Below are positions 22,401 to 53,373 of a stretch of DNA of 64,000 nucleotides, piece by piece. A program made the position numbers and the translations under genes. This DNA is from Escherichia phage S143_2: sequence record MZ189261.1; one strand, written 5' to 3'. A model generated the notes under the pieces. The model searched no databases. It worked only from the letters and a program-made list of their open reading frames with translations, and had not been told where the DNA came from. The number at the start of each line of letters is the position of its first letter. The first letter of the stretch is position 1.

Positions 22401-23390
22401 TTATTTATAGTAAGAATTATGATTTTCGAGATAGACTTGTTCAAGGAAGTCATCCCAGAAACTCATATCTACTTTTTGTTGCATACCGTTCTTGGCAGCT
22501 TGTTCTGACGCATGTTCAACTTGGTCAACGATATCTTCTAGGAATTCTTGTACAGTTTTAAAAGTATGTTTACCAAGCTTAACATCGAGAATAAATGGAG
22601 CATCCTGAAGTGGGTAAACCAGGTCGCCTGTTTTGTAAATTTCCAATAATTGAAGTCCACCACGGCATGCATGACTCAATGCTTTCCAGTCAATACCTTC
22701 GTTAGCTTCTGCTTTACGAGCACGTTCGCCATAGTTCTCTTCTAGTTTAACAAGGATGGCATTGAACTCTTTATTGGTTAACGTGTCTTGGAATTTACGG
22801 TCTAACAGATTATAGAATGTTTGCTTACCTGTTTTCTCGTTTTCGGTTTCAACCCATGAAGCAAATTCACCTACAGGCAGAACATTCTTCATATGTGATA
22901 AACGAATTACTGCACCATTATCAAAGTATTGTCCCCATTCATTAGAACGTTTAAGGGCTTGACGAAGAACAGCCAGTCGAGAACCCTTGACACCGTATTT
23001 AGAAGCTTGCTTACGGACATACCCTAAATAAGATTTCATGTTAGTGGTATAGAAACGAGACCTGTTATCTTGAATATACTTCCATACATCAGGCAAATCA
23101 GATTTAACTACTAGACTTGGTGGAGTGTGAAGCATATCTAATGCGACGGTTTCACCATCCGCAGCTAGTTTAAAGAAATATTTGAGACTATACAACTCAT
23201 GGTCCACGTCGTCTTTTGTGTTCTTAGAAGATGTGTTATTCGTGTTCTTGCTCATATGTTCTTTAACGTTACCGGTCAAAATATCACGAGCATGAGGGAC
23301 ATAAATTTCTTTAAAATCGACGTCAGATTCAGGAGTAGACGTTCCATAAAGGTGGCTACCAAAGTAGCCTTTCATAATTGTTTTCATCAT
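22401..23390 (-). CDS. nucleotidyltransferase-fold protein (pol-beta-like NTase)
   Basis: 329 aa; N-terminal GSHLYGTSTPESDVDF (G[SG]-x9-13-DxD) followed by helical C-terminal region. Confidence 0.5.
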   Translation of the reverse strand: MMKTIMKGYFGSHLYGTSTPESDVDFKEIYVPHARDILTGNVKEHMSKNTNNTSSKNTKDDVDHELYSLKYFFKLAADGETVALDMLHTPPSLVVKSDLPDVWKYIQDNRSRFYTTNMKSYLGYVRKQASKYGVKGSRLAVLRQALKRSNEWGQYFDNGAVIRLSHMKNVLPVGEFASWVETENEKTGKQTFYNLLDRKFQDTLTNKEFNAILVKLEENYGERARKAEANEGIDWKALSHACRGGLQLLEIYKTGDLVYPLQDAPFILDVKLGKHTFKTVQEFLEDIVDQVEHASEQAAKNGMQQKVDMSFWDDFLEQVYLENHNSYYK

Positions 23391-33806: not shown

Positions 33807-34280
33807 TTATAGGATGGTAGTGAGCACCTTATATAATGATTTGCCCATTACATATTCCCATTGAGAAGGTTTAATTAAAGCGAATGCATCAAATTCAGGA
33901 ATCTGTCGTCCGTCTGGGAATGTATGATAGGAATTACAAACACTGTTTCTGAATTGCTCGTGCTCTACAGGGATGGTATATAGGAACAGATGAATATTCT
34001 TATTGTCTGAGTAATGATGTTCACCTAGGTCTTTCAGGAAGGCAGGGTCATATTGTGTAAACCCAGTTTCTTCTTCGCATTCACGAATAGCGGCTTCGAT
34101 AGGAGATTCGCCGGGCTCGACACGACCTTTAGGAATATCCCACCGATGAGCTAAAGAACCTTTAGGACGAGAACCAGTTACACGCCCCATGAATAATTCT
34201 TTATCTTCGGTAAGGAAAATAATACCAGCTGATAGTTCTTTCACTTTATTTTTCTTACTCATCATCTCAAATTCCTGCAT
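33807..34280 (-). CDS. nudE: Nudix hydrolase NudE
   Basis: Nudix box GRVEPGESPIEAAIRECEEETGF; start probably at internal MMSKKNK. Confidence 0.85.
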   Translation of the reverse strand: MQEFEMMSKKNKVKELSAGIIFLTEDKELFMGRVTGSRPKGSLAHRWDIPKGRVEPGESPIEAAIRECEEETGFTQYDPAFLKDLGEHHYSDNKNIHLFLYTIPVEHEQFRNSVCNSYHTFPDGRQIPEFDAFALIKPSQWEYVMGKSLYKVLTTIL

Positions 34281-34753
34281 TCGGTAATAAAACGTTCAAC
34301 TTCATTATTCTTGGCCTTTATCTTGTCTTTATGTTCTTGTAAACTACTTTTAATAAGATTAATAATGATGGCGGTGGTGCCGCCGCCAATGATGCCACCA
34401 ACAACACTTATGATAATAGATGCTAATAAGATAGCAATAATATCAACAAAACCTAAAGAACTCACCTTAGTACTGAAAAACCATATAGACGGTACAAATA
34501 TAATCCATCCTGTTATCCATTGGCACTTATTGAAAAACTTTTCAAGCTCAGCTTGAGTTGTTTGTATTACTTCATCGATAGGTTGATATCCATTAATGTA
34601 TCTGTTCACGATAATACCTGCTGGCTGGTCGATTTTAAATTCTTGGCAAATACGTTTCACTAAGTAGGATGGACAGGATGTCCAATCTACTGAATAGTAT
34701 GAAATACCTTCATTGCCATCGTCTATATTAGACCAATATGTTTTGTTAATCAT
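34262..34753 (-). CDS. membrane protein with C-terminal ERFITECR motif
   Basis: 163 aa; TM helices; Gly-rich stretch; C-terminus ...EVERFITECRNLR. Confidence 0.5.
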   Translation of the reverse strand: MINKTYWSNIDDGNEGISYYSVDWTSCPSYLVKRICQEFKIDQPAGIIVNRYINGYQPIDEVIQTTQAELEKFFNKCQWITGWIIFVPSIWFFSTKVSSLGFVDIIAILLASIIISVVGGIIGGGTTAIIINLIKSSLQEHKDKIKAKNNEVERFITECRNLR

Positions 34754-35439
34754 TACCAGCCTTCCATAGGGAATTCCAGATAAACTTGAGCATTGACACG
34801 AATTTCATTGGTAATCTTTTTAACTCGGTCTGTATTACGAGATACACGTCCGAACCAACGCCATCCATTACTAATTGCACGAGAACCAGTGTGCCATGTT
34901 TGCCAATCAAACTGAAGAAGAGTACGATCTGGAGCTTCCCATTTCTCTAGTTCACCTTTTTCAATTTTTTCGAGGACTTCTTTGTGCCACTGGCGATAGA
35001 TAAGTTCGCCATCAGGAATCTGACTGAACTCTGCAGTTCCTGTTGCAAAATGAGTAGGACACACATCAGCGTTAACAAGACCAAGAATATGTTCAGACAA
35101 ATAGCGAGGATTGTCATAATCAGGTTGTCCTGCAGTAATAAAGTGTTGACCGACTGGAATATCTGGGCGAGGAACATCATCATGGTGATATCCAGGAATA
35201 GCAGGATACCAACCGGGCATCAGCATGTGAACTCGTGAATCAAATACTACATCCGAGTCTTTCCAATCGTCAGGAAGATTTTGGATAAAGCTACGAGTAA
35301 TCGGGCCACCATTATCAAAAGCAAAATTCAAATCGCAGTTAAAGAACATAGGCTCGTTTTTAATCTGGTCGTTTTTAATCGCATGAGCAAAACCACCTAC
35401 TGCACGAGCTTGGCTATTAAACACTTTAGAACTATTCAT
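34753..35439 (-). CDS. hypothetical His/Asp-rich protein
   Basis: 228 aa; possible metal-binding residues (YHHDD, CPTHF); no confident family. Confidence 0.5.
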   Translation of the reverse strand: MNSSKVFNSQARAVGGFAHAIKNDQIKNEPMFFNCDLNFAFDNGGPITRSFIQNLPDDWKDSDVVFDSRVHMLMPGWYPAIPGYHHDDVPRPDIPVGQHFITAGQPDYDNPRYLSEHILGLVNADVCPTHFATGTAEFSQIPDGELIYRQWHKEVLEKIEKGELEKWEAPDRTLLQFDWQTWHTGSRAISNGWRWFGRVSRNTDRVKKITNEIRVNAQVYLEFPMEGW

Positions 35440-35440
35440 A

Positions 35441-35746
35441 TTATTTTCCTCGACATTCTTTAATGAAATTTTCTAGATTGGTAGATTCAATAGCTTTTTT
35501 ACGAGCTTCTGCGTGTTCTTCTTCAGACAATTTACATTTATAATTGACCCAGACATTATGGTCGAAACTAGTCGTGGCATATAATAACAATGCTCCAACG
35601 AATAGCAAAAACGGTGATAAGAATACGAAACCAGGAACACCATCCATATCGTAGGCCTTTTGTAATACTGCAACAGAAAGAGCTGCGTAAAAAGGTGATG
35701 CAAATATTGTTAAAAGACCGATTCGGTTGGTTTCTGTTAATTTCAT
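35441..35746 (-). CDS. membrane protein with C-terminal ENFIKECR motif
   Basis: 101 aa; two TM helices; C-terminus ...NLENFIKECRGK. Confidence 0.5.
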   Translation of the reverse strand: MKLTETNRIGLLTIFASPFYAALSVAVLQKAYDMDGVPGFVFLSPFLLFVGALLLYATTSFDHNVWVNYKCKLSEEEHAEARKKAIESTNLENFIKECRGK

Positions 35747-35764: not shown

Positions 35765-35804
35765 TAATAGGACTACTATATCATAGTCCTATAATTGTGT
35801 AAAC
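35765..35804 (-). promoter_or_regulatory. early promoter plus stem-loop module (family C)
   Basis: minus strand GTTTAC-acaattaTAGGACTATgaTATAGTAGTCCTATTAAAAC. Confidence 0.5.
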
Positions 35805-35816
35805 AGTTTTGTGAAG

Positions 35817-36773
35817 TTATTTGAAAGGTTTTACCATATGGAAATTTTGTTTGAAACGTTTGACGTAATCATCATGTCCTAAGCTTTGGTACATACTTAC
35901 TACTTTGCTGTAGTTTTCCCAGGCATACTCACGGAACCAACCAGAGGTGATGCTTGTACAGACTTTTTCCAATGCCATCATAAAACTGGCTTCAGGGTTA
36001 ATTTTAAAGTCATTAGGAATTTGAGAACGTTCTAATGCTAGTACACATGATTCTTCGTATACACCGGCCAATTTGACCATTTCTGGTAACGATTCAAACT
36101 TCTCGCGTGAGGTCATGACTTCAGAACCGTCTTTCATATAAAATGTATACGCTGGACGGTCTGTTAGTGCAATGGCTTCATGAATAGTATCATGGTCATA
36201 CGTATAGATGTCATCTTTAAAGAACGCACTTTTAGAAGTGTCAAGAACTGGGTGAGCATAGTTCAAGGTTTCTTTCTGGCGTTTCAGCATAATTTCAGTA
36301 AGTTCATCGTTCAGTGTAACACCTTTACCACGAAGATACTGAATATGGTTCATAGTCTTTAAAAAGAATGGATTATTTTTCTTGAAACGATGAGACAACT
36401 TAATTGCAAGACATATCTCAGGAGTTGCCCAGTAAAACCCGTTCAAACGGTCTTTAGTCAAATTTTTCTTGGCGTATTTTAAAAGGTCATAAGAAGACGT
36501 GAAATCTTCAGGAGTGAGTTCACCTACTAATTCACGGACATTAGTGATTGCCGGAACAATATATGCTTCAAAATGAGTTTCGCGTCCATTATGGAAGCAT
36601 TTGAAAACTTGGACATCAGGGTTATCTTGATGAACATATACACCCATCATTTGATTTTTGAATGCATTCCAAGAACCTTGGTCTGCAATAAAGTCCCAGT
36701 CACTATTTTTGATAGCGTTAGAATCAATAAGACCATGATAGTGAAGTGCACGAGAACCAATAACTAACATCAT
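35817..36773 (-). CDS. nucleotidyltransferase-fold protein (second copy)
   Basis: 318 aa; N-terminal GSRALHYHGLIDSNAIKNSDWDF (G[SG]...DxD). Confidence 0.45.
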   Translation of the reverse strand: MMLVIGSRALHYHGLIDSNAIKNSDWDFIADQGSWNAFKNQMMGVYVHQDNPDVQVFKCFHNGRETHFEAYIVPAITNVRELVGELTPEDFTSSYDLLKYAKKNLTKDRLNGFYWATPEICLAIKLSHRFKKNNPFFLKTMNHIQYLRGKGVTLNDELTEIMLKRQKETLNYAHPVLDTSKSAFFKDDIYTYDHDTIHEAIALTDRPAYTFYMKDGSEVMTSREKFESLPEMVKLAGVYEESCVLALERSQIPNDFKINPEASFMMALEKVCTSITSGWFREYAWENYSKVVSMYQSLGHDDYVKRFKQNFHMVKPFK

Positions 36774-36801
36774 AATATTTTCCTCGGATTAATTCATTAA
36801 C

Positions 36802-37053
36802 TTAAATTTCACGACATGCGATATCATATTCATCCCAGAGGTCATCGTGTGAAGCCTCTACCAATGGAACGATTGTACCATTTATGTCTTCATTATAAGG
36901 GCAAATTGTACAGTGCGCATCTTCGAATCGGATACCTTTGTGTTCAGATTTTTTATAACGCATATCGAATATCTTTGCAAATTTTTCACGAGTAATGGTT
37001 TTACCAACCACTTTGGTTCCGATACTTTCGTAATAAATCATTGTGGACTCCAT
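36802..37053 (-). CDS. hypothetical protein
   Basis: 83-aa ORF. Confidence 0.4.
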   Translation of the reverse strand: MESTMIYYESIGTKVVGKTITREKFAKIFDMRYKKSEHKGIRFEDAHCTICPYNEDINGTIVPLVEASHDDLWDEYDIACREI

Positions 37054-37057
37054 TTAA

Positions 37058-37099
37058 TTTGATAGGACTACTATAACATAGCCCTATCTTGTTGTAAAC
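37058..37099 (-). promoter_or_regulatory. early promoter plus stem-loop module (family C)
   Basis: minus strand GTTTAC-aacaagaTAGGGCTATgtTATAGTAGTCCTATCAAAT. Confidence 0.5.
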
Positions 37100-37103
37100 T
37101 GTT

Positions 37104-37301
37104 TTAGCAAGAATAACTAGACGATACCCAGCCTTGAACAGTGATACTATTGTGGGATAATGAGATCGCGTCCTGGAGATTCAGACCTGCGTTATCTTCA
37201 ATCCATAACGTAACTTCTTCGCGTTCTTCTGTTGCAATTTGGAACAGGTTTTCCAGAGCAGCTACTGCCGTACGTACAGCACAATCTAATTCACGAGACA
37301 T
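37104..37301 (-). CDS. small protein ending W-V-SSSYSC (paralog C)
   Basis: 65 aa; C-terminus QGWVSSSYSC. Confidence 0.5.
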   Translation of the reverse strand: MSRELDCAVRTAVAALENLFQIATEEREEVTLWIEDNAGLNLQDAISLSHNSITVQGWVSSSYSC

Positions 37302-37310
37302 ATGGTTTCC

Positions 37311-37583
37311 TTAGCAAGTGTGAGAAGATGCGATCCAACCACCAGTTTCGAGGCTTAGGTTGTAGTCGTATTGGTAAACGTCGGCCCATTCAGCATAGCC
37401 GTTTTTTGTACAACGTTCAAGGTCGGCTTTAAGCTGTCCGGGTGAATGATATGTTCCACCCATACCATAAGCTGGATACAAGTCGAATGTTGTGTTTTGT
37501 TTATCAGCAATTTCTTTGGCAGCCTCAATAGCTGCATAGATTTTTGCTACAGCTTCAGCCAATTCGGTTTGTTCTTTAGACAT
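37311..37583 (-). CDS. small protein ending W-I-ASSHTC (paralog B)
   Basis: 90 aa; shares N-terminal helix and YG.G.TY core with 37593..37898. Confidence 0.5.
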   Translation of the reverse strand: MSKEQTELAEAVAKIYAAIEAAKEIADKQNTTFDLYPAYGMGGTYHSPGQLKADLERCTKNGYAEWADVYQYDYNLSLETGGWIASSHTC

Positions 37584-37592
37584 AGTGATTCC

Positions 37593-37898
37593 TTAGCACA
37601 ACGCAGAAGACGAAACCCAAGCACCTTCAGTAATAACGTAACCGTTACCTTCACGCTTAACATCGCCACCATTATTTTCAATTTCATCTTTCATCCACTG
37701 GGATACGATTTCACCCTTAGGATAATAAGTACGACCGCTACCATAATCACCTACAGAAAATGATACGGCATATTGGTCTGCGATCTTTGTTGCTTCTTCT
37801 TCGATACGTTCAGCTTGATTCAGAAGTTTATAAATTGCGTCTGAAGCGGATTTGGCATCATTAAACTCTGGTACTTTAATTTCAATAATCTTACTCAT
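37593..37898 (-). CDS. small protein ending W-V-SSSALC (paralog A)
   Basis: 101 aa; C-terminus EGAWVSSSALC. Confidence 0.5.
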   Translation of the reverse strand: MSKIIEIKVPEFNDAKSASDAIYKLLNQAERIEEEATKIADQYAVSFSVGDYGSGRTYYPKGEIVSQWMKDEIENNGGDVKREGNGYVITEGAWVSSSALC

Positions 37899-38254
37899 TT
37901 TCTACATTCCTTAATAAAGTTTTCGATTGTTTCATTTTCACGTCTAGCTAGGAGTTCATTATAACTAATCATTTGAGAAGCGTAAACCTTTTTATTTTTC
38001 TTGTTATGGTTTATAAAGTCGTAGTAAAAATAGACTACAGTACAAAAGGATGCGATGGATGCAAAGGCTTGGGTATACCGTAAGTCCTGCCATTGGTCTG
38101 TGAATCCACCAGTGTTCCCTATAAATCCTAACACAACGCCGTCAATAAGAAATCCAACTAATCCAAAGGCAAATCCCATGCCAATACTCATAATAAAAAT
38201 TAGAATGTTCTCACCAAGAGAAGGCCATACGGTTAAGAGTTGAGGCTTTTGCAT
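37895..38254 (-). CDS. membrane protein with C-terminal ENFIKECR motif
   Basis: 119 aa; multiple TM helices; C-terminus ...TIENFIKECRK. Confidence 0.5.
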   Translation of the reverse strand: MQKPQLLTVWPSLGENILIFIMSIGMGFAFGLVGFLIDGVVLGFIGNTGGFTDQWQDLRYTQAFASIASFCTVVYFYYDFINHNKKNKKVYASQMISYNELLARRENETIENFIKECRK

Positions 38255-38658
38255 CTTATTTCCTTAACGAATTCCATAGCTTCTTCATATTCATACTTTT
38301 TAACAGCTTCATCATACTGAGCTTGGGCTTTTGCGCACTGAACTTTCCATTCTCTTAATCGGGCTCTGTGATGACGGCCTTGGTGCCAATATCCTGCCCA
38401 ATTAATAGGCATTAATAAAAACGGTACAATAAGTGGTGCGACGAACATTAATGAAAACGCTGCATCAGACGATATAACTTTATTGGAATCTAAAACAGCT
38501 CCTATAATCATAAAGATTAAAAACGCTAAAGCTAAAATAGGGCCAAATAGTACTTCATTTGGGATTAATTTACGCTTGTATTCATACGCCCAGGGCTTAC
38601 TTGGCATGTATAGGGTTGGCTTTGACATATTCTCTACATTCCATAATAAATTGCTCAA
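38233..38658 (-). CDS. membrane protein with variant C-terminal motif (EFVKEIRC)
   Basis: 141 aa; two TM helices. Confidence 0.5.
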   Translation of the reverse strand: MSNLLWNVENMSKPTLYMPSKPWAYEYKRKLIPNEVLFGPILALAFLIFMIIGAVLDSNKVISSDAAFSLMFVAPLIVPFLLMPINWAGYWHQGRHHRARLREWKVQCAKAQAQYDEAVKKYEYEEAMEFVKEIRCKSLNS

Positions 38659-39214
38659 GGATTAAATTGTTAGTGAAATTAGGACTAACAACCATGGTTT
38701 CATAAAGCGCATCAATAGCACTTAAAGCATCAACTCTTTTAAGCAAAGGCTTGCCTTCATACATAGTTTCAGAATCGACGATTAAAGTGAAGTAGTATTT
38801 TTTATTATTGACCAGAACTTCTGTATCAATATAAAACATGTTAGACCTTAAAAGCTTGTCTCTAAAGCCTATGTAATCATCTGAACGTTCACTGATATAG
38901 TCCCATTCAGTGTTTAAACAACAAACAGACCACGTAGGAGCAACGAAATCAGTGAATCTAATATCATGGTCTGCAACTAGTTTAGCAATAGCTCCGATAT
39001 CATGAATCATAATACCTGGGGCTAATAAAGATTTTCGGTTATTTGCATATTCAGTTGTCTCATAAGAAGACGACCAGTACCATTTACGTCCAGTTGCAAC
39101 ATATCGTAATGAATCAACTAAAGACGTAGGTGGATTTACCTTATCTCGGAACTCTTCGAACATTGAGTCAATATCATTATTTTGGTTTCGCATGTTAACT
39201 CCTTTATTATCCAA
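38597..39214 (-). CDS. hypothetical protein with EQFIMECR motif near C-terminus (start uncertain)
   Basis: track ORF overlaps upstream gene; probable start MRNQNNDIDS. Confidence 0.4.
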   Translation of the reverse strand: MDNKGVNMRNQNNDIDSMFEEFRDKVNPPTSLVDSLRYVATGRKWYWSSSYETTEYANNRKSLLAPGIMIHDIGAIAKLVADHDIRFTDFVAPTWSVCCLNTEWDYISERSDDYIGFRDKLLRSNMFYIDTEVLVNNKKYYFTLIVDSETMYEGKPLLKRVDALSAIDALYETMVVSPNFTNNLILEQFIMECREYVKANPIHAK

Positions 39215-42192: not shown

Positions 42193-42269
<77 letters not shown>

Positions 42270-42273
42270 TATT

Positions 42274-42348
42274 TGGCGGACGTGATAGGATTCGAACCTA
42301 TAACCAATCGCTTAACAGGCGATCGCTCTGCCATTGAGCTACACATCC
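42274..42348 (-). tRNA. tRNA-Asn (anticodon GUU)
   Basis: 75-nt cloverleaf; anticodon stem ATCGC/GCGAT, loop CUGUUAA; T-arm GGTTCGAATCC; encoded CCA. Confidence 0.8.
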
Positions 42349-42352
42349 AAAT

Positions 42353-42439
42353 TGGTGGGGAGTGATGGAGTCGAACCACCCGAGTCGCAATGACAATGGA
42401 TTTACAGTCCACACCGCTACCTCTACGGGATAACTCCCC
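42353..42439 (-). tRNA. tRNA-Tyr (anticodon GUA)
   Basis: 87 nt with long variable arm; anticodon loop CUGUAAA; acceptor GGGGAGT/ACTCCCC; encoded CCA. Confidence 0.75.
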
Positions 42440-42451
42440 TAATTCATAATT

Positions 42452-42526
42452 TGGTGGCCCTGGGTGGAATTGAACCACCATCTGGCGATTATGAGTCGCT
42501 TGCTTGAACCTTCCAGCTACAGGGCC
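42452..42526 (-). tRNA. tRNA with CAU anticodon (Met or Ile2)
   Basis: 75-nt cloverleaf; anticodon loop CUCAUAA; position after Thr corresponds to T4 tRNA-Ile. Confidence 0.75.
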
Positions 42527-42527
42527 T

Positions 42528-42604
42528 TGGTGCTGATTGACGGAATCGAACCGCCGACCTTCTCATTACAAGTGAGTTGCTCTACCTACTGAGCTAAATC
42601 AGCA
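42528..42604 (-). tRNA. tRNA-Thr (anticodon UGU)
   Basis: 77-nt cloverleaf; anticodon loop CUUGUAA; T-arm GGTTCGATTCC. Confidence 0.8.
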
Positions 42605-42608
42605 AAAC

Positions 42609-42698
42609 TGGCGGAGGCGATAGGATTTGAACCTATGAGTCGCCGGAGCGACTGCCGGTTTTCAAGACCGGTGCATTAAACCACTCTGCCACGCCTCC
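42609..42698 (-). tRNA. tRNA-Ser (anticodon UGA)
   Basis: 90 nt with long variable arm; anticodon loop CUUGAAA; acceptor GGAGGCG/CGCCTCC. Confidence 0.8.
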
Positions 42699-42700
42699 AG

Positions 42701-42774
42701 TCTCCATACAAGGATTTGAACCTTGGGCCTCCTGATCCCAAATCAGGCGCTCTACCAAACTGAGCTACACGGAG
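42701..42774 (-). tRNA. tRNA-Pro (anticodon UGG)
   Basis: 74 nt; anticodon loop UUUGGGA; T-arm GGTTCAAATCC; CCA not encoded. Confidence 0.75.
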
Positions 42775-42784
42775 TAAATTAAAT

Positions 42785-42858
<74 letters not shown>

Positions 42859-42863
42859 AAATT

Positions 42864-42950
42864 TGGTGCGAGAAGTGGGACTCGAACCCACAAGGAAATC
42901 ATTCCGCAGCATTTTAAGTGCTGTGCCTTTACCAATTTGGCCATTCTCGC
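42864..42950 (-). tRNA. tRNA-Leu (anticodon UAA)
   Basis: 87 nt with long variable arm; anticodon loop CUUAAAA. Confidence 0.8.
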
Positions 42951-42951
42951 G

Positions 42952-43024
42952 CTGGGAATAAAGGACTCGAACCTTTGCATCCTGGAATCAAAATCCAGTG
43001 CCTTACCAACTTGGCTAATTCCCA
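42952..43024 (-). tRNA. tRNA-Gln (anticodon UUG)
   Basis: 73 nt; anticodon loop UUUUGAU; T-arm GGTTCGAGTCC; CCA not encoded. Confidence 0.75.
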
Positions 43025-51097: not shown

Positions 51098-51391
51098 ATG
51101 TCAGGCTTAAGTTACGACAAGTGCGTTACAACAGGTCATGAAGCATGGCCTCCTACTGTAATAAATGCTTCCCAATCTAAAGTATTCACCGGCGGTATTC
51201 CTGTTCTTGTGGCAGGAGACCAAATAACACCCCATACAGAAATTAAAAAACCATACGAGACTCATGGAGGTGTTACTGAACCTCGTACATCTAAAGTATA
51301 CGTCACCGGTAAAAAGGCTGTTCAAATGGCTGACCCAATTTCATGCGGGGATACTGTTTCTCAGGCCTCGTCAAAAGTCTTTATAAAATAG
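51098..51391 (+). CDS. 5.4: PAAR-repeat spike tip protein gp5.4
   Basis: 97 aa from ATG 51098 ([19 protein letters not shown]...); size equals T4 gp5.4; track start 51044 extends upstream. Confidence 0.7.
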
Positions 51392-51399
51392 GAATTAAA

Positions 51400-53373
51400 A
51401 TGGCAAACACTCCTGTAAATTATCAATTAACCCGAACAGCGAATGCTATTCCCGAGATTTTTATCGGGGGCACATTTGCCGAAATCAAACAGAACATTAT
51501 TGAATGGCTCAATGGGCAGAATGAATTTCTTGATTATGATTTTGAAGGTTCACGCTTAAACGTATTGTGCGACCTTTTAGCATATAACACTCTTTACATC
51601 CAACAGTTCAGTAATAGTGCAGTGTATGAAAGTTTTATGCGTACTGCAAACTTGCGTAGTTCTGTTGTACAAGCGGCTCAAGATAACGGATATCTGCCTT
51701 CATCTAAATCAGCAGCACAAACAGAAATTATGCTCACATGTACGGATGCATTAAATAGAAACTATATCACCATTCCGCGTGGCACTCGTTTCTTAGCATA
51801 CGCTAAAGATACTTCTGTTAACCCGTATAACTTTGTTTCTACTGAAGATGTCATTGTAGTTAAAGACAAAAATAACCAATATTTCCCACGTCTTCGATTA
51901 GCTCAGGGACGTATTGTTCGTACTGAATTAACATTTGATAAATTAAAACCTATCATTATTCGTGATAAGAACATTGACCGTAATTTAGTTAAGTTGTACG
52001 TTGATGGAGCAGAATGGATTAACTGGACACGTAAGTCGATGGTTCACGCTGGTTCTACGTCAACGATCTATTATATGCGTGAAACAGTTGATGGGAACAC
52101 CGAATTTTATTTTGGTGAAGGCGAAATCTCTATTAACACGTCAGAAGGTGCGTTAACGTCTAACTATATTGGTGGCCTTAAACCTGTTCAGGGTTCTAAA
52201 ATCGTAATTGAGTATATTTCTACTAATGGCGCAGATGCTAACGGTGCTGTAGGATTTTCTTATGCTGATACATTAGCTAATATCACGGTAATCGATATTA
52301 ACGAGAACCCTAGCAATAACCCAGACTTTGTTGGGGCCGACGGCGGTGGTGACCCTGAAGATATTGAACGTATCCGCGAATTAGGCACAATTAAACGCGA
52401 AACTCAACAACGTTGTGTAACCGCTTCCGACTATGACACATTCGTCTCTGAGCGGTTTGGTTCTATTATTCAAGCAGTTCAAACATTCACAGATTCGTCT
52501 AAACCTGGGTATGCATACATTGCTGCTAAGCCTAAATCTGGATTGTATTTGACTTCTGTCCAACGTGATGATATCAAAAACTATTTGAATGATTATAACT
52601 TAGGGACTATTACACCTGTTGTTATTTCGCCTGATTATTTGTTTATCAAAATGAATATCAAAGTTACATACGCGTTGAATAAACTCCAAGAATCAGAACA
52701 ATATCTTGAAGGGCAGATTATTAATAAAATTGACCGTTATTATATTGAAGATGTAGAAATTTTTAACTCATCGTTTGCAAAATCTAAAATGCTAACTTAT
52801 GTCGATGATGCAGATATTTCTATTATTGGTTCTTCAGCTACTATTCAAATGGTTCGCGAAGTACAAAACTTCTATAAAACGCCTGAGGCCGGTATTAAAT
52901 ACAATAATCAGATTAAAGATAGATCGATGGAATCTAATATATTCTCGTTTGATTCGCACAGACCTAATCCAGAAAATGCAAACGAAACTATTAAATACGG
53001 TGTTCGCATAGTATCTTCCGACCGTAATGACCGTGGCATAGGTCAAGTTATTATTGGTCCATTTGCAGACGGTGATGTTGTTGAAAACGAAAATATACAA
53101 CCTTATACAGGTAATGATTTTAATAAACTTACTGTTACTGACGGACGAAACAAATACTATTCAATTGGTGAAGTGAATTATCCTGCCGATTCGATTTATT
53201 GGAACATTGCTAAAATTGACCTCACTTCAGACCGTTTTGAAGTTCAAACAATTGAACTTTATTCCGACCCTGCAGATGATATTATTTTTACAAAGGATGG
53301 TTCTTTAATCGTATTCGAAAATGACTTACGTCCTCAGTACTTAACTATAGATTTGGAGCCTATTTCACAATGA
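51400..53373 (+). CDS. 6: baseplate wedge protein gp6
   Basis: 657 aa from ATG 51400: MANTPVNYQLTRTANAIPEIFIGG matches T4 gp6. Confidence 0.95.
   Translation: MANTPVNYQLTRTANAIPEIFIGGTFAEIKQNIIEWLNGQNEFLDYDFEGSRLNVLCDLLAYNTLYIQQFSNSAVYESFMRTANLRSSVVQAAQDNGYLPSSKSAAQTEIMLTCTDALNRNYITIPRGTRFLAYAKDTSVNPYNFVSTEDVIVVKDKNNQYFPRLRLAQGRIVRTELTFDKLKPIIIRDKNIDRNLVKLYVDGAEWINWTRKSMVHAGSTSTIYYMRETVDGNTEFYFGEGEISINTSEGALTSNYIGGLKPVQGSKIVIEYISTNGADANGAVGFSYADTLANITVIDINENPSNNPDFVGADGGGDPEDIERIRELGTIKRETQQRCVTASDYDTFVSERFGSIIQAVQTFTDSSKPGYAYIAAKPKSGLYLTSVQRDDIKNYLNDYNLGTITPVVISPDYLFIKMNIKVTYALNKLQESEQYLEGQIINKIDRYYIEDVEIFNSSFAKSKMLTYVDDADISIIGSSATIQMVREVQNFYKTPEAGIKYNNQIKDRSMESNIFSFDSHRPNPENANETIKYGVRIVSSDRNDRGIGQVIIGPFADGDVVENENIQPYTGNDFNKLTVTDGRNKYYSIGEVNYPADSIYWNIAKIDLTSDRFEVQTIELYSDPADDIIFTKDGSLIVFENDLRPQYLTIDLEPISQ

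What the first reader, a model, noticed from the sequence alone, without database searches (positions are those of the whole stretch)
35817..36773. Second NTase-fold protein, possible paralogue, in the nudE-tRNA block
GSRALHYHGLIDSNAIKNSDWDF is again a G[SG]...DxD signature in a ~320-aa protein, 13 kb from the first. Two NTase-like genes in separate hyperplastic regions suggests a duplicated enzyme family with distinct substrates.
Basis: partly seen in the sequence, partly recalled or inferred. Interest (0 to 1): 0.55.

Follow-up and report, generated by a model that had tools for sequence, protein, structure and literature searches.

The report
Phage nucleotidyltransferase with tagged small-protein partners
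The gene does encode a nucleotide-transferring enzyme, but it is not a copy of the other one in the window; in many unrelated phages it sits just after one to five small proteins ending in the same tryptophan/serine-serine/cysteine tail, a pairing I found described nowhere and whose chemistry is untested.

Summary

It is not a detectable paralogue of 22401..23390, which is nrdC.11 (RlaP family). BLASTP finds nothing. Profile comparison aligns only the 23-column catalytic motif (probability 0.35%).

The C-terminal 200 residues are the best-conserved part and have no solved structural relative.

The main new result is a conserved cassette. In 88 of 94 loci (35 enzyme lineages), one to five small acidic ORFs lie upstream on the same strand and end in W-x(1,2)-S-S-x(0,2)-C-stop. 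A stricter pattern counted 181 upstream, 0 downstream and 1 on the opposite strand. The window has three (37104..37898). T4 has no homologue annotated or found in 80 kb scanned, and no such ORF there.

Best guess (inferred, untested): the enzyme nucleotidylylates this tail. Rivals: a MenT-like RNA-end transferase regulated by the small proteins, or a small-molecule transferase.

The parts
35817..36773 (-). ORF of 318 aa (stop codon included). It corresponds to RB69ORF134c: a Pol-beta-superfamily nucleotidyltransferase with a family-specific helical C-terminal domain.
   Evidence: ORF. 98% nucleotide identity to RB69ORF134c. Pfam DUF7277 and DUF7275. phrog_2141. AF2 model with pLDDT 91.8.
36471..36770 (-). 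NTase catalytic core (aa 2-101, Pfam DUF7277). G6-S7 sit at the strand-to-helix turn, D25-W-D27 on the next strand, and E69 on strand 64-73.
35859..36416 (-). All-alpha domain (aa 120-305, Pfam DUF7275), the most conserved part of the protein. The first helices carry invariant K125 and H128 and resemble the helical lobe of MenT-type enzymes. The rest holds the YDHDxIHE, GVYEExCVLALER and KVCTSITSGWFRE motifs and has no solved relative.
36781..36785 (-). Shine-Dalgarno sequence GAGGA, 7 nt before the ATG at 36773.
   Evidence: Read directly from the sequence.
36802..37053 (-). Small ORF of 83 aa (RB69ORF135c, phrog_3723) lying between the tail-motif ORFs and the enzyme gene. It is lineage-specific, not a conserved part of the cassette.
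   Evidence: It does not fall in any family shared by 4 or more enzyme lineages.
37070..37098 (-). T4-early-type sigma-70 promoter-like site (TTTACA, 17-nt spacer, TG-TATAGT) upstream of ORF135c and the enzyme gene.
   Evidence: Consensus scan, 10 of 12 matches with a TG extension. Sequence. This is a consensus match only; function is not shown.
37104..37301 (-). Tail-motif small protein 1: 65 aa, RB69ORF136c, phrog_4882. It ends in ...QGWVSSSYSC followed by the stop codon.
37311..37583 (-). Tail-motif small protein 2: 90 aa, RB69ORF137c, phrog_899. It has an internal AYGMGGTYH motif and ends in ...GGWIASSHTC followed by the stop codon. Its TGC-TAA-GGA end supplies the ribosome-binding site of the next ORF.
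37593..37898 (-). Tail-motif small protein 3: 101 aa, split into ORF138c and ORF139c in the RB69 record, phrog_899. It has an internal DYGSGRTYYP motif and ends in ...GAWVSSSALC followed by the stop codon.
37958..37986 (-). Second promoter-like site (TTTACG, 17-nt spacer, TATAAT), inside the end of e.3 and upstream of the three tail-motif ORFs.
   Evidence: Consensus scan. Function is not shown.

Best explanation
The gene encodes an apparently active Pol-beta-superfamily nucleotidyltransferase, probably expressed early. It has a minimal catalytic core (DUF7277) and a large helical domain found so far only in phage and phage-like contigs (DUF7275). It is the enzyme half of a two-part phage cassette. 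The other half is one to five small acidic proteins encoded just upstream. Their bodies differ, but all end in the tail W-x(1,2)-S-S-x(0,2)-C-COOH.

Most likely the helical domain docks this tail next to the two-metal active site, and the enzyme transfers a nucleoside monophosphate from an NTP onto a tail nucleophile. One of the two invariant serines is the best candidate. This would mark or activate a set of different small effector proteins.

Shown here: the fold, the conserved catalytic residues, and the gene linkage. Inferred: that the small proteins are substrates, which residue is modified, and which nucleotide is used.
For: Fold and active site:
- AF2 model pLDDT 91.8.
- G6, S7, D25, D27, K125, H128, H194, D195, H198, E240, E241, E248, R249 and S274 are essentially invariant in 98 sequences. 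E69 is E or D in 90, with the other 8 gapped.

Linkage with the small proteins:
- In 80 IMG/VR loci the stricter pattern found 181 tail-motif ORFs upstream on the same strand, 0 downstream and 1 on the opposite strand, among 9809 ORFs. 73 of 80 loci have at least one. The nearest ends a median 374 bp before the enzyme gene.
- With a looser pattern, 88 of 94 loci are positive.
- Unbiased clustering of all same-strand ORFs shows the small proteins are the only family shared widely: 28 of 35 enzyme lineages, against 8 for the next family.
- In the 80 kb of T4 scanned, e.2 abuts e.3, no homologue of the enzyme is annotated, and none of 630 ORFs carries the tail. The window has exactly three such ORFs among 541, all beside the enzyme gene.

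Why substrate rather than inhibitor:
- The tail is invariant (W, S-S and C in 159 of 159 proteins in the main register). The bodies fall into 21 BLAST clusters and are present in 1-5 copies.
- This is the pattern of one modifying enzyme acting on many tagged proteins.
- The enzyme's most conserved domain is the one with no other assigned role.
- Four short-form relatives without tail ORFs nearby have lost R129, H174, C272, S277 and R281, all invariant or nearly so in the long forms.

Precedent (established knowledge, not tested here): NTase-fold enzymes that nucleotidylylate proteins exist, such as GlnE, GlnD, DrrA and the MntA antitoxin.
Against:
- Gene linkage does not distinguish substrate from regulator.
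- The closest solved structures act on tRNA 3' ends (MenT1/3/4) or on small molecules (ANT(2''), LnuA), not on proteins.
- MenT1's antitoxin is also a small protein encoded upstream (PMC10435456).
- About 5 of 94 loci, for example the locus from a 165,540-bp contig (L050), have the enzyme without a recognisable tail ORF within 3 kb.
- The short forms keep the catalytic motifs without partners, so the enzyme may have a substrate that is not the tail.
- The loss of five residues in the short forms may be a single evolutionary event.
Confidence: 0.42

Rival explanations
1. A MenT-like RNA transferase regulated by the small proteins. The enzyme adds nucleotides to the 3' ends of tRNA or other RNA, either to block host translation or to repair ends. 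The upstream small acidic proteins are antitoxin-like inhibitors or specificity factors that insert their conserved tail into the active site.
For: - MenT1 is neutralised by a 68-aa protein encoded upstream that blocks its active site (PMC10435456).
- Region 106-170 of the enzyme is basic, at about +4 to +6.
- Some loci have a ligase or PNKP gene within a few kb.
Against: - None of 40 family members matched any AbiEii/DUF1814 family model, even at E up to 5.
- The protein as a whole is acidic (mean pI 6.4, net charge about -4), so a large RNA-binding surface is not obvious.
- An inhibitor would not need 1-5 divergent copies with unrelated bodies and a chemically invariant S-S...C tail.
- There is no consistent tRNA linkage: 1 of 16 loci.
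- Close relatives were found only in phage-like contigs, with none in ordinary bacterial genomes where toxin-antitoxin pairs usually live.
Confidence: 0.22
2. A small-molecule nucleotidyltransferase of the ANT(2'')/LnuA type. The acidic helical domain binds a cationic or hydroxyl-bearing metabolite, such as an antibiotic-like anti-phage compound or a nucleotide or NAD-derived signal. The small proteins are merely co-regulated neighbours.
For: - The C-terminal domain is acidic, with invariant E240, E241, E248, D193 and D195, as in aminoglycoside transferases.
- NAD or ADP-ribose-related genes lie within a few kb in several lineages: nudE, SIR2, macro, an ADP-ribosyltransferase, and NAD-salvage genes.
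Against: - It does not explain the strict, oriented linkage with tail-motif ORFs in 28 of 35 lineages while every other neighbour changes.
- The NAD-related neighbours are different genes at varying distances, and such genes are common in large phages, so the association is not clearly above chance. This was not tested statistically.
- No Pfam match to antibiotic NTase families.
Confidence: 0.12
3. One reading: a paralogue of the NTase at 22401..23390, arising from duplication within the phage lineage and later diverging in substrate.
For: Both proteins are about 320 aa and carry an N-terminal GS...DxD motif. Both belong to the Pol-beta NTase superfamily.
Against: - No BLASTP similarity.
- hhalign probability 0.35% over 23 motif columns only.
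- Different Pfam and PHROG families and different C-terminal domains.
- Different phyletic distributions and different partners.
Confidence: 0.03

Closest known systems
MenT1/MenT3/MenT4 toxins (DUF1814/AbiEii nucleotidyltransferases of Mycobacterium tuberculosis; PDB 8an4, 6j7n, 6y56)
   Different: No sequence or Pfam relationship. The phage protein has about 150 extra, highly conserved C-terminal residues with no solved relative. Its relatives were found only in phage and phage-like contigs. It has 1-5 partners with an invariant C-terminal tail. Activity on tRNA has not been tested.
Antibiotic nucleotidyltransferases ANT(2'')-Ia (4xje) and LnuA (4wh5), and the uncharacterised NTases TM1012, JHP933 and 5uvd
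   Different: Those enzymes are 155-225 aa and act on small molecules or have no known substrate. There is no sequence similarity to them, and none has a tagged-protein partner.
NTase-fold protein nucleotidylyltransferases (GlnE, GlnD, Legionella DrrA, and the MntA antitoxin of HEPN-MNT type VII toxin-antitoxin systems)
   Same: This is a functional analogy only: a Pol-beta-fold enzyme that transfers NMP onto a side chain of a specific protein. In MntA/HepT the target is the product of the adjacent gene. This rests on established knowledge and was not tested here.
   Different: No detected homology beyond the superfamily. The partners here are not HEPN proteins (no Pfam hits). The modification itself is hypothetical.
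RlaP family (PF10127; T4 nrdC.11), the other NTase in this window at 22401..23390
   Same: The same superfamily, the same N-terminal GS...DxD motif and a similar length.
   Different: A different family: hhalign probability 0.35%. RlaP adds 1-2 nucleotides to damaged RNA 3' ends and associates with RNA ligases (PMC12776372, PMC7824862). It occurs in the Tequatrovirus relatives of T4 (for example RB14), whereas no homologue of the target is annotated or found in T4.
Multi-precursor RiPP clusters (for example one lanthipeptide synthetase serving many precursor genes)
   Same: Several paralogous small ORFs with a Ser/Cys motif lie directly upstream of a single enzyme gene.

Membership tests
Pol-beta-like nucleotidyltransferase superfamily | An hG[GS] motif at the turn between the first strand and the following helix | tested here: met
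   I5-G6-S7. The model has a strand at 2-5 and a helix at 6-12. G6 and S7 are present in 97 of 98 relatives.
Pol-beta-like nucleotidyltransferase superfamily | [DE]h[DE]h on the next beta-strand (the two metal-binding carboxylates) | tested here: met
   D25-W-D27-F at the start of strand 26-31. D25 is present in 95 of 98 (E in 2) and D27 in 97 of 98.
Pol-beta-like nucleotidyltransferase superfamily | A third carboxylate (h[DE]h) on a later strand | tested here: met
   F68-E69-A70 on strand 64-73. The position is E in 84 and D in 6 of 98; the remainder are alignment gaps.
Pol-beta-like nucleotidyltransferase superfamily | Fold similarity to solved members | tested here: met
Pol-beta-like nucleotidyltransferase superfamily | NMP-transfer activity | not testable with these tools
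   Requires an enzyme assay.
Pfam DUF7277 + DUF7275 (phrog_2141) | Scores above the curated thresholds for both domains | tested here: met
   96.9 and 263.7 bits against a cut-off of 27 for each. phrog_2141 E = 8e-150.
DUF1814 / AbiEii / MenT toxins | Sequence-profile membership | tested here: not met
   None of 40 family members matched any AbiEii/DUF1814 family model, even at E up to 5.
DUF1814 / AbiEii / MenT toxins | Structural similarity of the core and helical lobe | tested here: met
DUF1814 / AbiEii / MenT toxins | C-terminal catalytic motifs III and IV (Lys and Asp, for example MenT1 K137 and D152) | tested here: inconclusive
   K125 is invariant on the first helix of the helical lobe. 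No residue-level superposition was available to show that it is equivalent.
DUF1814 / AbiEii / MenT toxins | tRNA 3'-end extension and toxicity neutralised by a cognate antitoxin | not testable with these tools
   Small upstream ORFs exist, but their role is unknown.
RlaP (PF10127; nrdC.11), i.e. paralogy with 22401..23390 | Detectable homology beyond the catalytic motif | tested here: not met
   BLASTP best E = 4. hhalign aligns 23 columns with probability 0.35%. Only the other protein hits the RlaP Pfam model.
HD-domain phosphohydrolase (considered for the C-terminal domain because of the invariant H...HD...H pattern) | The HD fold | tested here: not met
RiPP / lanthipeptide-type pathway | Several precursor genes next to the modifying enzyme | tested here: met
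   1-5 tail ORFs upstream in 88 of 94 loci.
RiPP / lanthipeptide-type pathway | A known dehydratase or cyclase domain (LanB/LanC/LanM/LanKC), and a conserved leader with a variable core | tested here: not met
HEPN-MNT type VII toxin-antitoxin system | A HEPN-domain partner of the NTase | tested here: not met
   The three window small proteins have no credible Pfam hit at E up to 0.01. The single weak, sub-threshold hit is unrelated to HEPN. They fall in PHROGs of unknown function.

The most novel reading that the evidence does not exclude
A previously undescribed phage protein-tagging system. A dedicated Pol-beta nucleotidyltransferase, using a new helical recognition domain, installs a nucleotide-derived modification on the invariant C-terminal W-SS-C tag of a diversifying set of small acidic early proteins. 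The modification might be further processed, for example by elimination to dehydroalanine and capture by the terminal cysteine. This would create a family of modified effectors used in host takeover or counter-defence across many unrelated large phages.
Probability: 0.3. Interest if true: 0.85.

Novelty: new variant of a known kind. Interest (0 to 1): 0.68.

Why it matters
The enzyme family is large: about 1600 clusters at 50% identity, and 733 phage records. Hosts range from enterobacteria to Myxococcus. Relatives were found only in phage and phage-like contigs, and the family is annotated only as two domains of unknown function.

Its sole conserved neighbour is a set of small proteins with an invariant Ser-Ser/Cys tail. 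That turns an anonymous "hypothetical protein" into a two-component system with a concrete hypothesis. Co-expression plus mass spectrometry would test it directly.

If the tail is nucleotidylylated or further processed, this would be a new kind of post-translational modification in phage early biology. It could also provide a portable tag-and-enzyme pair. If the small proteins instead regulate a MenT-like RNA transferase, it would be the first such module carried by virulent phages. Either result would explain part of the unannotated early-gene content of T4-like, rV5-like and jumbo phages.

Tried and rejected
1. Sugar-nucleotide synthesis for RB69's arabinosylated cytosine. Rejected: that pathway is assigned to RB69 gp45-55 and has its own sugar nucleotidyltransferase (PMC13326640). 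The family also occurs in phages without that modification.

2. A functional link to the tRNA cluster. Rejected: tRNA genes lie within about 3-7 kb in only 1 of 16 other loci.

4. A conserved downstream partner (ORF132c, ORF133c). No similarity to the downstream genes of other lineages, and neither appears in any widely shared cluster.

5. ORF135c as part of the cassette. It is lineage-specific.

6. C243 as a partner of the tail cysteine. It is replaced by Y or M in 20 long-form relatives, nearly all with tail ORFs nearby.

7. Sequence searches against solved structures, with the single sequence and with a profile. Nothing found.

8. NCBIfam and PADLOC scans. Nothing meaningful.

9. Literature searches for the DUF names, RB69 ORF names, PHROG numbers, the YGMGG motif, and phage NTase/RiPP combinations. 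Nothing relevant in the held library.

10. A profile search for the small proteins in the large protein collection. It returned only 7 unnamed hits without Pfam domains. The sequences are too short for that database's E-values.

11. A scan of bacterial and archaeal genomes. It gave only 5 loci, all in metagenome-assembled bins; of the two examined, one is clearly phage-like and the other ambiguous. The scan relies on exact peptide patterns, so distant relatives would be missed.

Full report
**Context.** The window comes from an RB69-like T4-type phage (genus Mosigvirus). The 957-nt region is 98-99% identical to RB69 and its relatives and corresponds to RB69ORF134c, annotated "hypothetical protein". 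It lies between e.2 and e.3. In T4, e.2 abuts e.3 directly. The block RB69ORF132c-139c, which holds this gene, is therefore an insertion or deletion relative to T4.

**Checking the observation.** The ORF at 35817..36773 (-) encodes 318 aa. It has a GAGGA ribosome-binding site 7 nt before the ATG. The quoted peptide is residues 6-28.

The loose G[SG]...DxD pattern is weak evidence on its own: 7 of 84 long ORFs contain it. Only this ORF and 22401..23390 have it at the N-terminus. The classical stricter pattern hits 3 ORFs, against 0.28 expected by chance.

Conservation settles the matter. In 98 relatives G6 and S7 are kept in 97, D25 in 95 (E in 2), D27 in 97, and E69 is E or D in 90, with the other 8 gapped.

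**What the protein is.**
- Pfam assigns DUF7277 (aa 2-101) and DUF7275 (aa 120-305). PHROGs assigns phrog_2141, function unknown. NCBIfam, PADLOC and sequence searches of the PDB gave nothing useful.
- An AlphaFold2 model built from a 40-sequence alignment is confident (pLDDT 91.8, pTM 0.86). G6-S7 sit at a strand-to-helix turn, D25-x-D27 on the next strand, and E69 on a later strand. This is the canonical Pol-beta nucleotidyltransferase arrangement.
- About the first 150 residues are therefore an NTase of the MenT/ANT(2'')/Lnu structural group.
- That domain is nevertheless the most conserved part of the protein. It carries invariant K125, H128, H194, D195, H198, E240, E241, E248, R249 and S274.

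**Is it a paralogue of 22401..23390?** No relationship beyond the superfamily can be detected.
- The other gene is nrdC.11, a member of the RlaP family (PF10127, phrog_388). RlaP enzymes add one or two nucleotides to damaged RNA 3' ends (PMC12776372; PMC7824862).
- BLASTP between the two finds nothing.
- hhalign between family alignments aligns only the 23 columns of the GS...DxD motif (probability 0.35%, E = 0.17).
- Domain content, distribution and neighbours all differ.

**Distribution.**
- The family has about 2100 hits in the 90%-identity collection and 1598 clusters at 50% identity, almost all about 300 aa with the same architecture.
- tblastn finds it in 733 phage records. These include T4-like phages of many hosts, Phapecoctavirus, Otagovirus, Myxococcus phage Mx1 and jumbo phages.
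- Shorter forms of 251-266 aa occur in actinophages and one Vibrio phage. They keep GS and DxD but have a reduced N-terminal domain.
- A pattern scan of one genome per bacterial and archaeal species found only five loci, all in metagenome bins. Two were examined: one carries a phage-type replication module and the other is ambiguous.
- Consensus promoter matches of the T4-early type lie upstream, which suggests early expression.

**Neighbourhood: the main new result.** Most neighbours differ from lineage to lineage. tRNA genes are near in only 1 of 16 other loci.

Aligning the ORFs immediately upstream showed that they share a C-terminal ending. A pattern scan then found small same-strand ORFs ending in W-x-[SA]-S-S-x-x-C-stop upstream of the enzyme gene in almost every lineage, including three in the window: 37104..37301, 37311..37583 and 37593..37898.

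In 80 further IMG/VR loci:
- The stricter pattern found 181 such ORFs upstream on the same strand, none downstream and one on the opposite strand, among 9809 ORFs.
- 73 of 80 loci have one to five copies.
- The nearest copy ends a median 374 bp before the enzyme gene.

With a slightly looser pattern, 88 of 94 loci are positive. Several apparent negatives carry variants such as W-V-Q-S-S-C or W-D-G-S-S-C directly upstream.

An unbiased all-against-all clustering of same-strand ORFs shows this is the only family shared broadly. It occurs in 28 of 35 enzyme lineages, against 8 for the next family.

The first 80 kb of T4 holds the syntenic region. No homologue of the enzyme is annotated there, and none of its 630 ORFs carries the tail. 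The 64-kb window has exactly three such ORFs, all adjacent to the enzyme gene.

**The small proteins.**
- They are 52-172 aa (median 90) and acidic (median pI 4.4).
- Their bodies are heterogeneous: 21 BLAST clusters, including phrog_899, 4882 and 23943. Many have an N-terminal helix and a YGMGG-x-Y motif.
- The tail is invariant. W, S-S and the terminal C are present in 159 of 159 proteins in the main register. The consensus is G-[GA]-W-[VLIM]-S-S-S-x-x-C-COOH.
- Some carry the motif twice. A related subfamily has an internal W-x-x-S-G-G-C motif.
- In the window they are translationally coupled: TGC-TAA-GGA provides the next ribosome-binding site.
- They have no Pfam family, and no description was found in the held literature.

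**Interpretation.** Established here: an NTase fold with a complete, conserved catalytic set; a novel conserved helical domain; and tight, oriented linkage to tail-tagged small proteins.

The inference rests on three points.
- Many different protein bodies share one chemically invariant tail, next to a single enzyme whose best-conserved domain has no other assigned role. That is the signature of an enzyme and its tagged substrates.
- The most economical mechanism is transfer of an NMP onto a tail serine, or less likely the cysteine.
- Four short-form relatives without tail ORFs nearby have lost R129, H174, C272, S277 and R281. This fits, but it may reflect a single evolutionary event.

The main rival follows the MenT1/MenA1 precedent (PMC10435456): an RNA-end transferase with the small proteins as inhibitors. 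Three things count against it: the multiplicity and diversity of the partners, the enzyme's overall acidity, and the absence of close relatives in ordinary bacterial genomes. A small-molecule acceptor, as in ANT and Lnu enzymes, cannot be excluded but leaves the linkage unexplained. The variable spacing between S-S and C (0-2 residues) argues against a lanthionine-like ring of fixed size, although further processing after nucleotidylylation remains possible.

**Verdict.** The gene belongs to a large, uncharacterised family seen so far only in phage and phage-like contigs. Its real interest is the conserved cassette with W-SS-C-tailed small proteins, which I could not find described anywhere. 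The chemistry is untested and the mechanism is a hypothesis (confidence about 0.4).

Noticed in passing
window 34262..34753, 35441..35746, 37895..38254, 38233..38658, 38597..39214 (all on the minus strand): Five neighbouring ORFs (e.2, ORF133c, e.3, e.4, e.5), at least three with clearly hydrophobic stretches, end in a shared motif: ...ERFITECRNLR, ...ENFIKECRGK, ...ENFIKECRK, ...MEFVKEIRCKSLNS and ...EQFIMECREY... This is a second recurring C-terminal motif in the same block, distinct from the W-SS-C tail.
   Followed up: no
window 37060..37098 and 35765..35803 (minus strand): The two promoter-like sites flanking ORF135c and the enzyme gene share a nearly identical element of about 40 nt, GTTTACA-n-ATAGG(A/G)CTATG(A/T)TATAGTAGTCCTAT. 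It includes an inverted repeat that overlaps the -10 hexamer.
   Followed up: no
window 42193..43024 (minus strand): Ten tRNA genes in one cluster (Arg, Asn, Tyr, Met, Thr, Ser, Pro, Gly, Leu, Gln). In the syntenic RB69 stretch I fetched, only tRNA-Arg and tRNA-Met appear, tagged RB69t001 and RB69t002, at the edge of the stretch. This phage may therefore carry a larger tRNA set than RB69.
   Followed up: partly
window 34753..35439 (minus strand): ORF132c encodes 228 aa and belongs to the same insertion relative to T4. It has no Pfam hit and no similarity to the genes downstream of the enzyme in other lineages. It contains a His-rich stretch, PGWYPAIPGYHHDD.
   Followed up: partly
L007 5556-5921, L019 6250-6666, and L065, L078, L083, L087, L089, L090, L092, L093, L095 (upstream of the enzyme gene): A subfamily related to the tail proteins does not end in Cys. 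It carries an internal W-E-x-S-G-G-C-E-W motif followed by ...ESAxYGYDYGW(N/D)(V/I/L)-stop. It often sits beside ordinary tail-motif ORFs.
   Followed up: no
Neighbourhoods of the enzyme gene: window 33807..34280 (nudE); L002/L018 (SIR2); L020 (macro domain); L017 (NAD-salvage genes); L028 (ADP-ribosyltransferase): Genes of NAD or ADP-ribose metabolism lie within a few kb of the enzyme gene in about 6 of 14 independent lineages. They are different genes at different distances, and this may be chance in large phages.
   Followed up: partly
window 51343..53373 (plus strand): A 676-aa structural (baseplate-type) protein also matches the strict N-terminal NTase pattern. This looks like chance and shows how weak the motif is without conservation or fold evidence.
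   Followed up: no
RB69 record NC_004928, ORF138c/ORF139c (L001 4875-5181): The third tail-motif gene is a single 101-aa ORF in this window but is split into two ORFs in the RB69 reference. That is probably a frameshift or sequencing error in the reference.
   Followed up: partly
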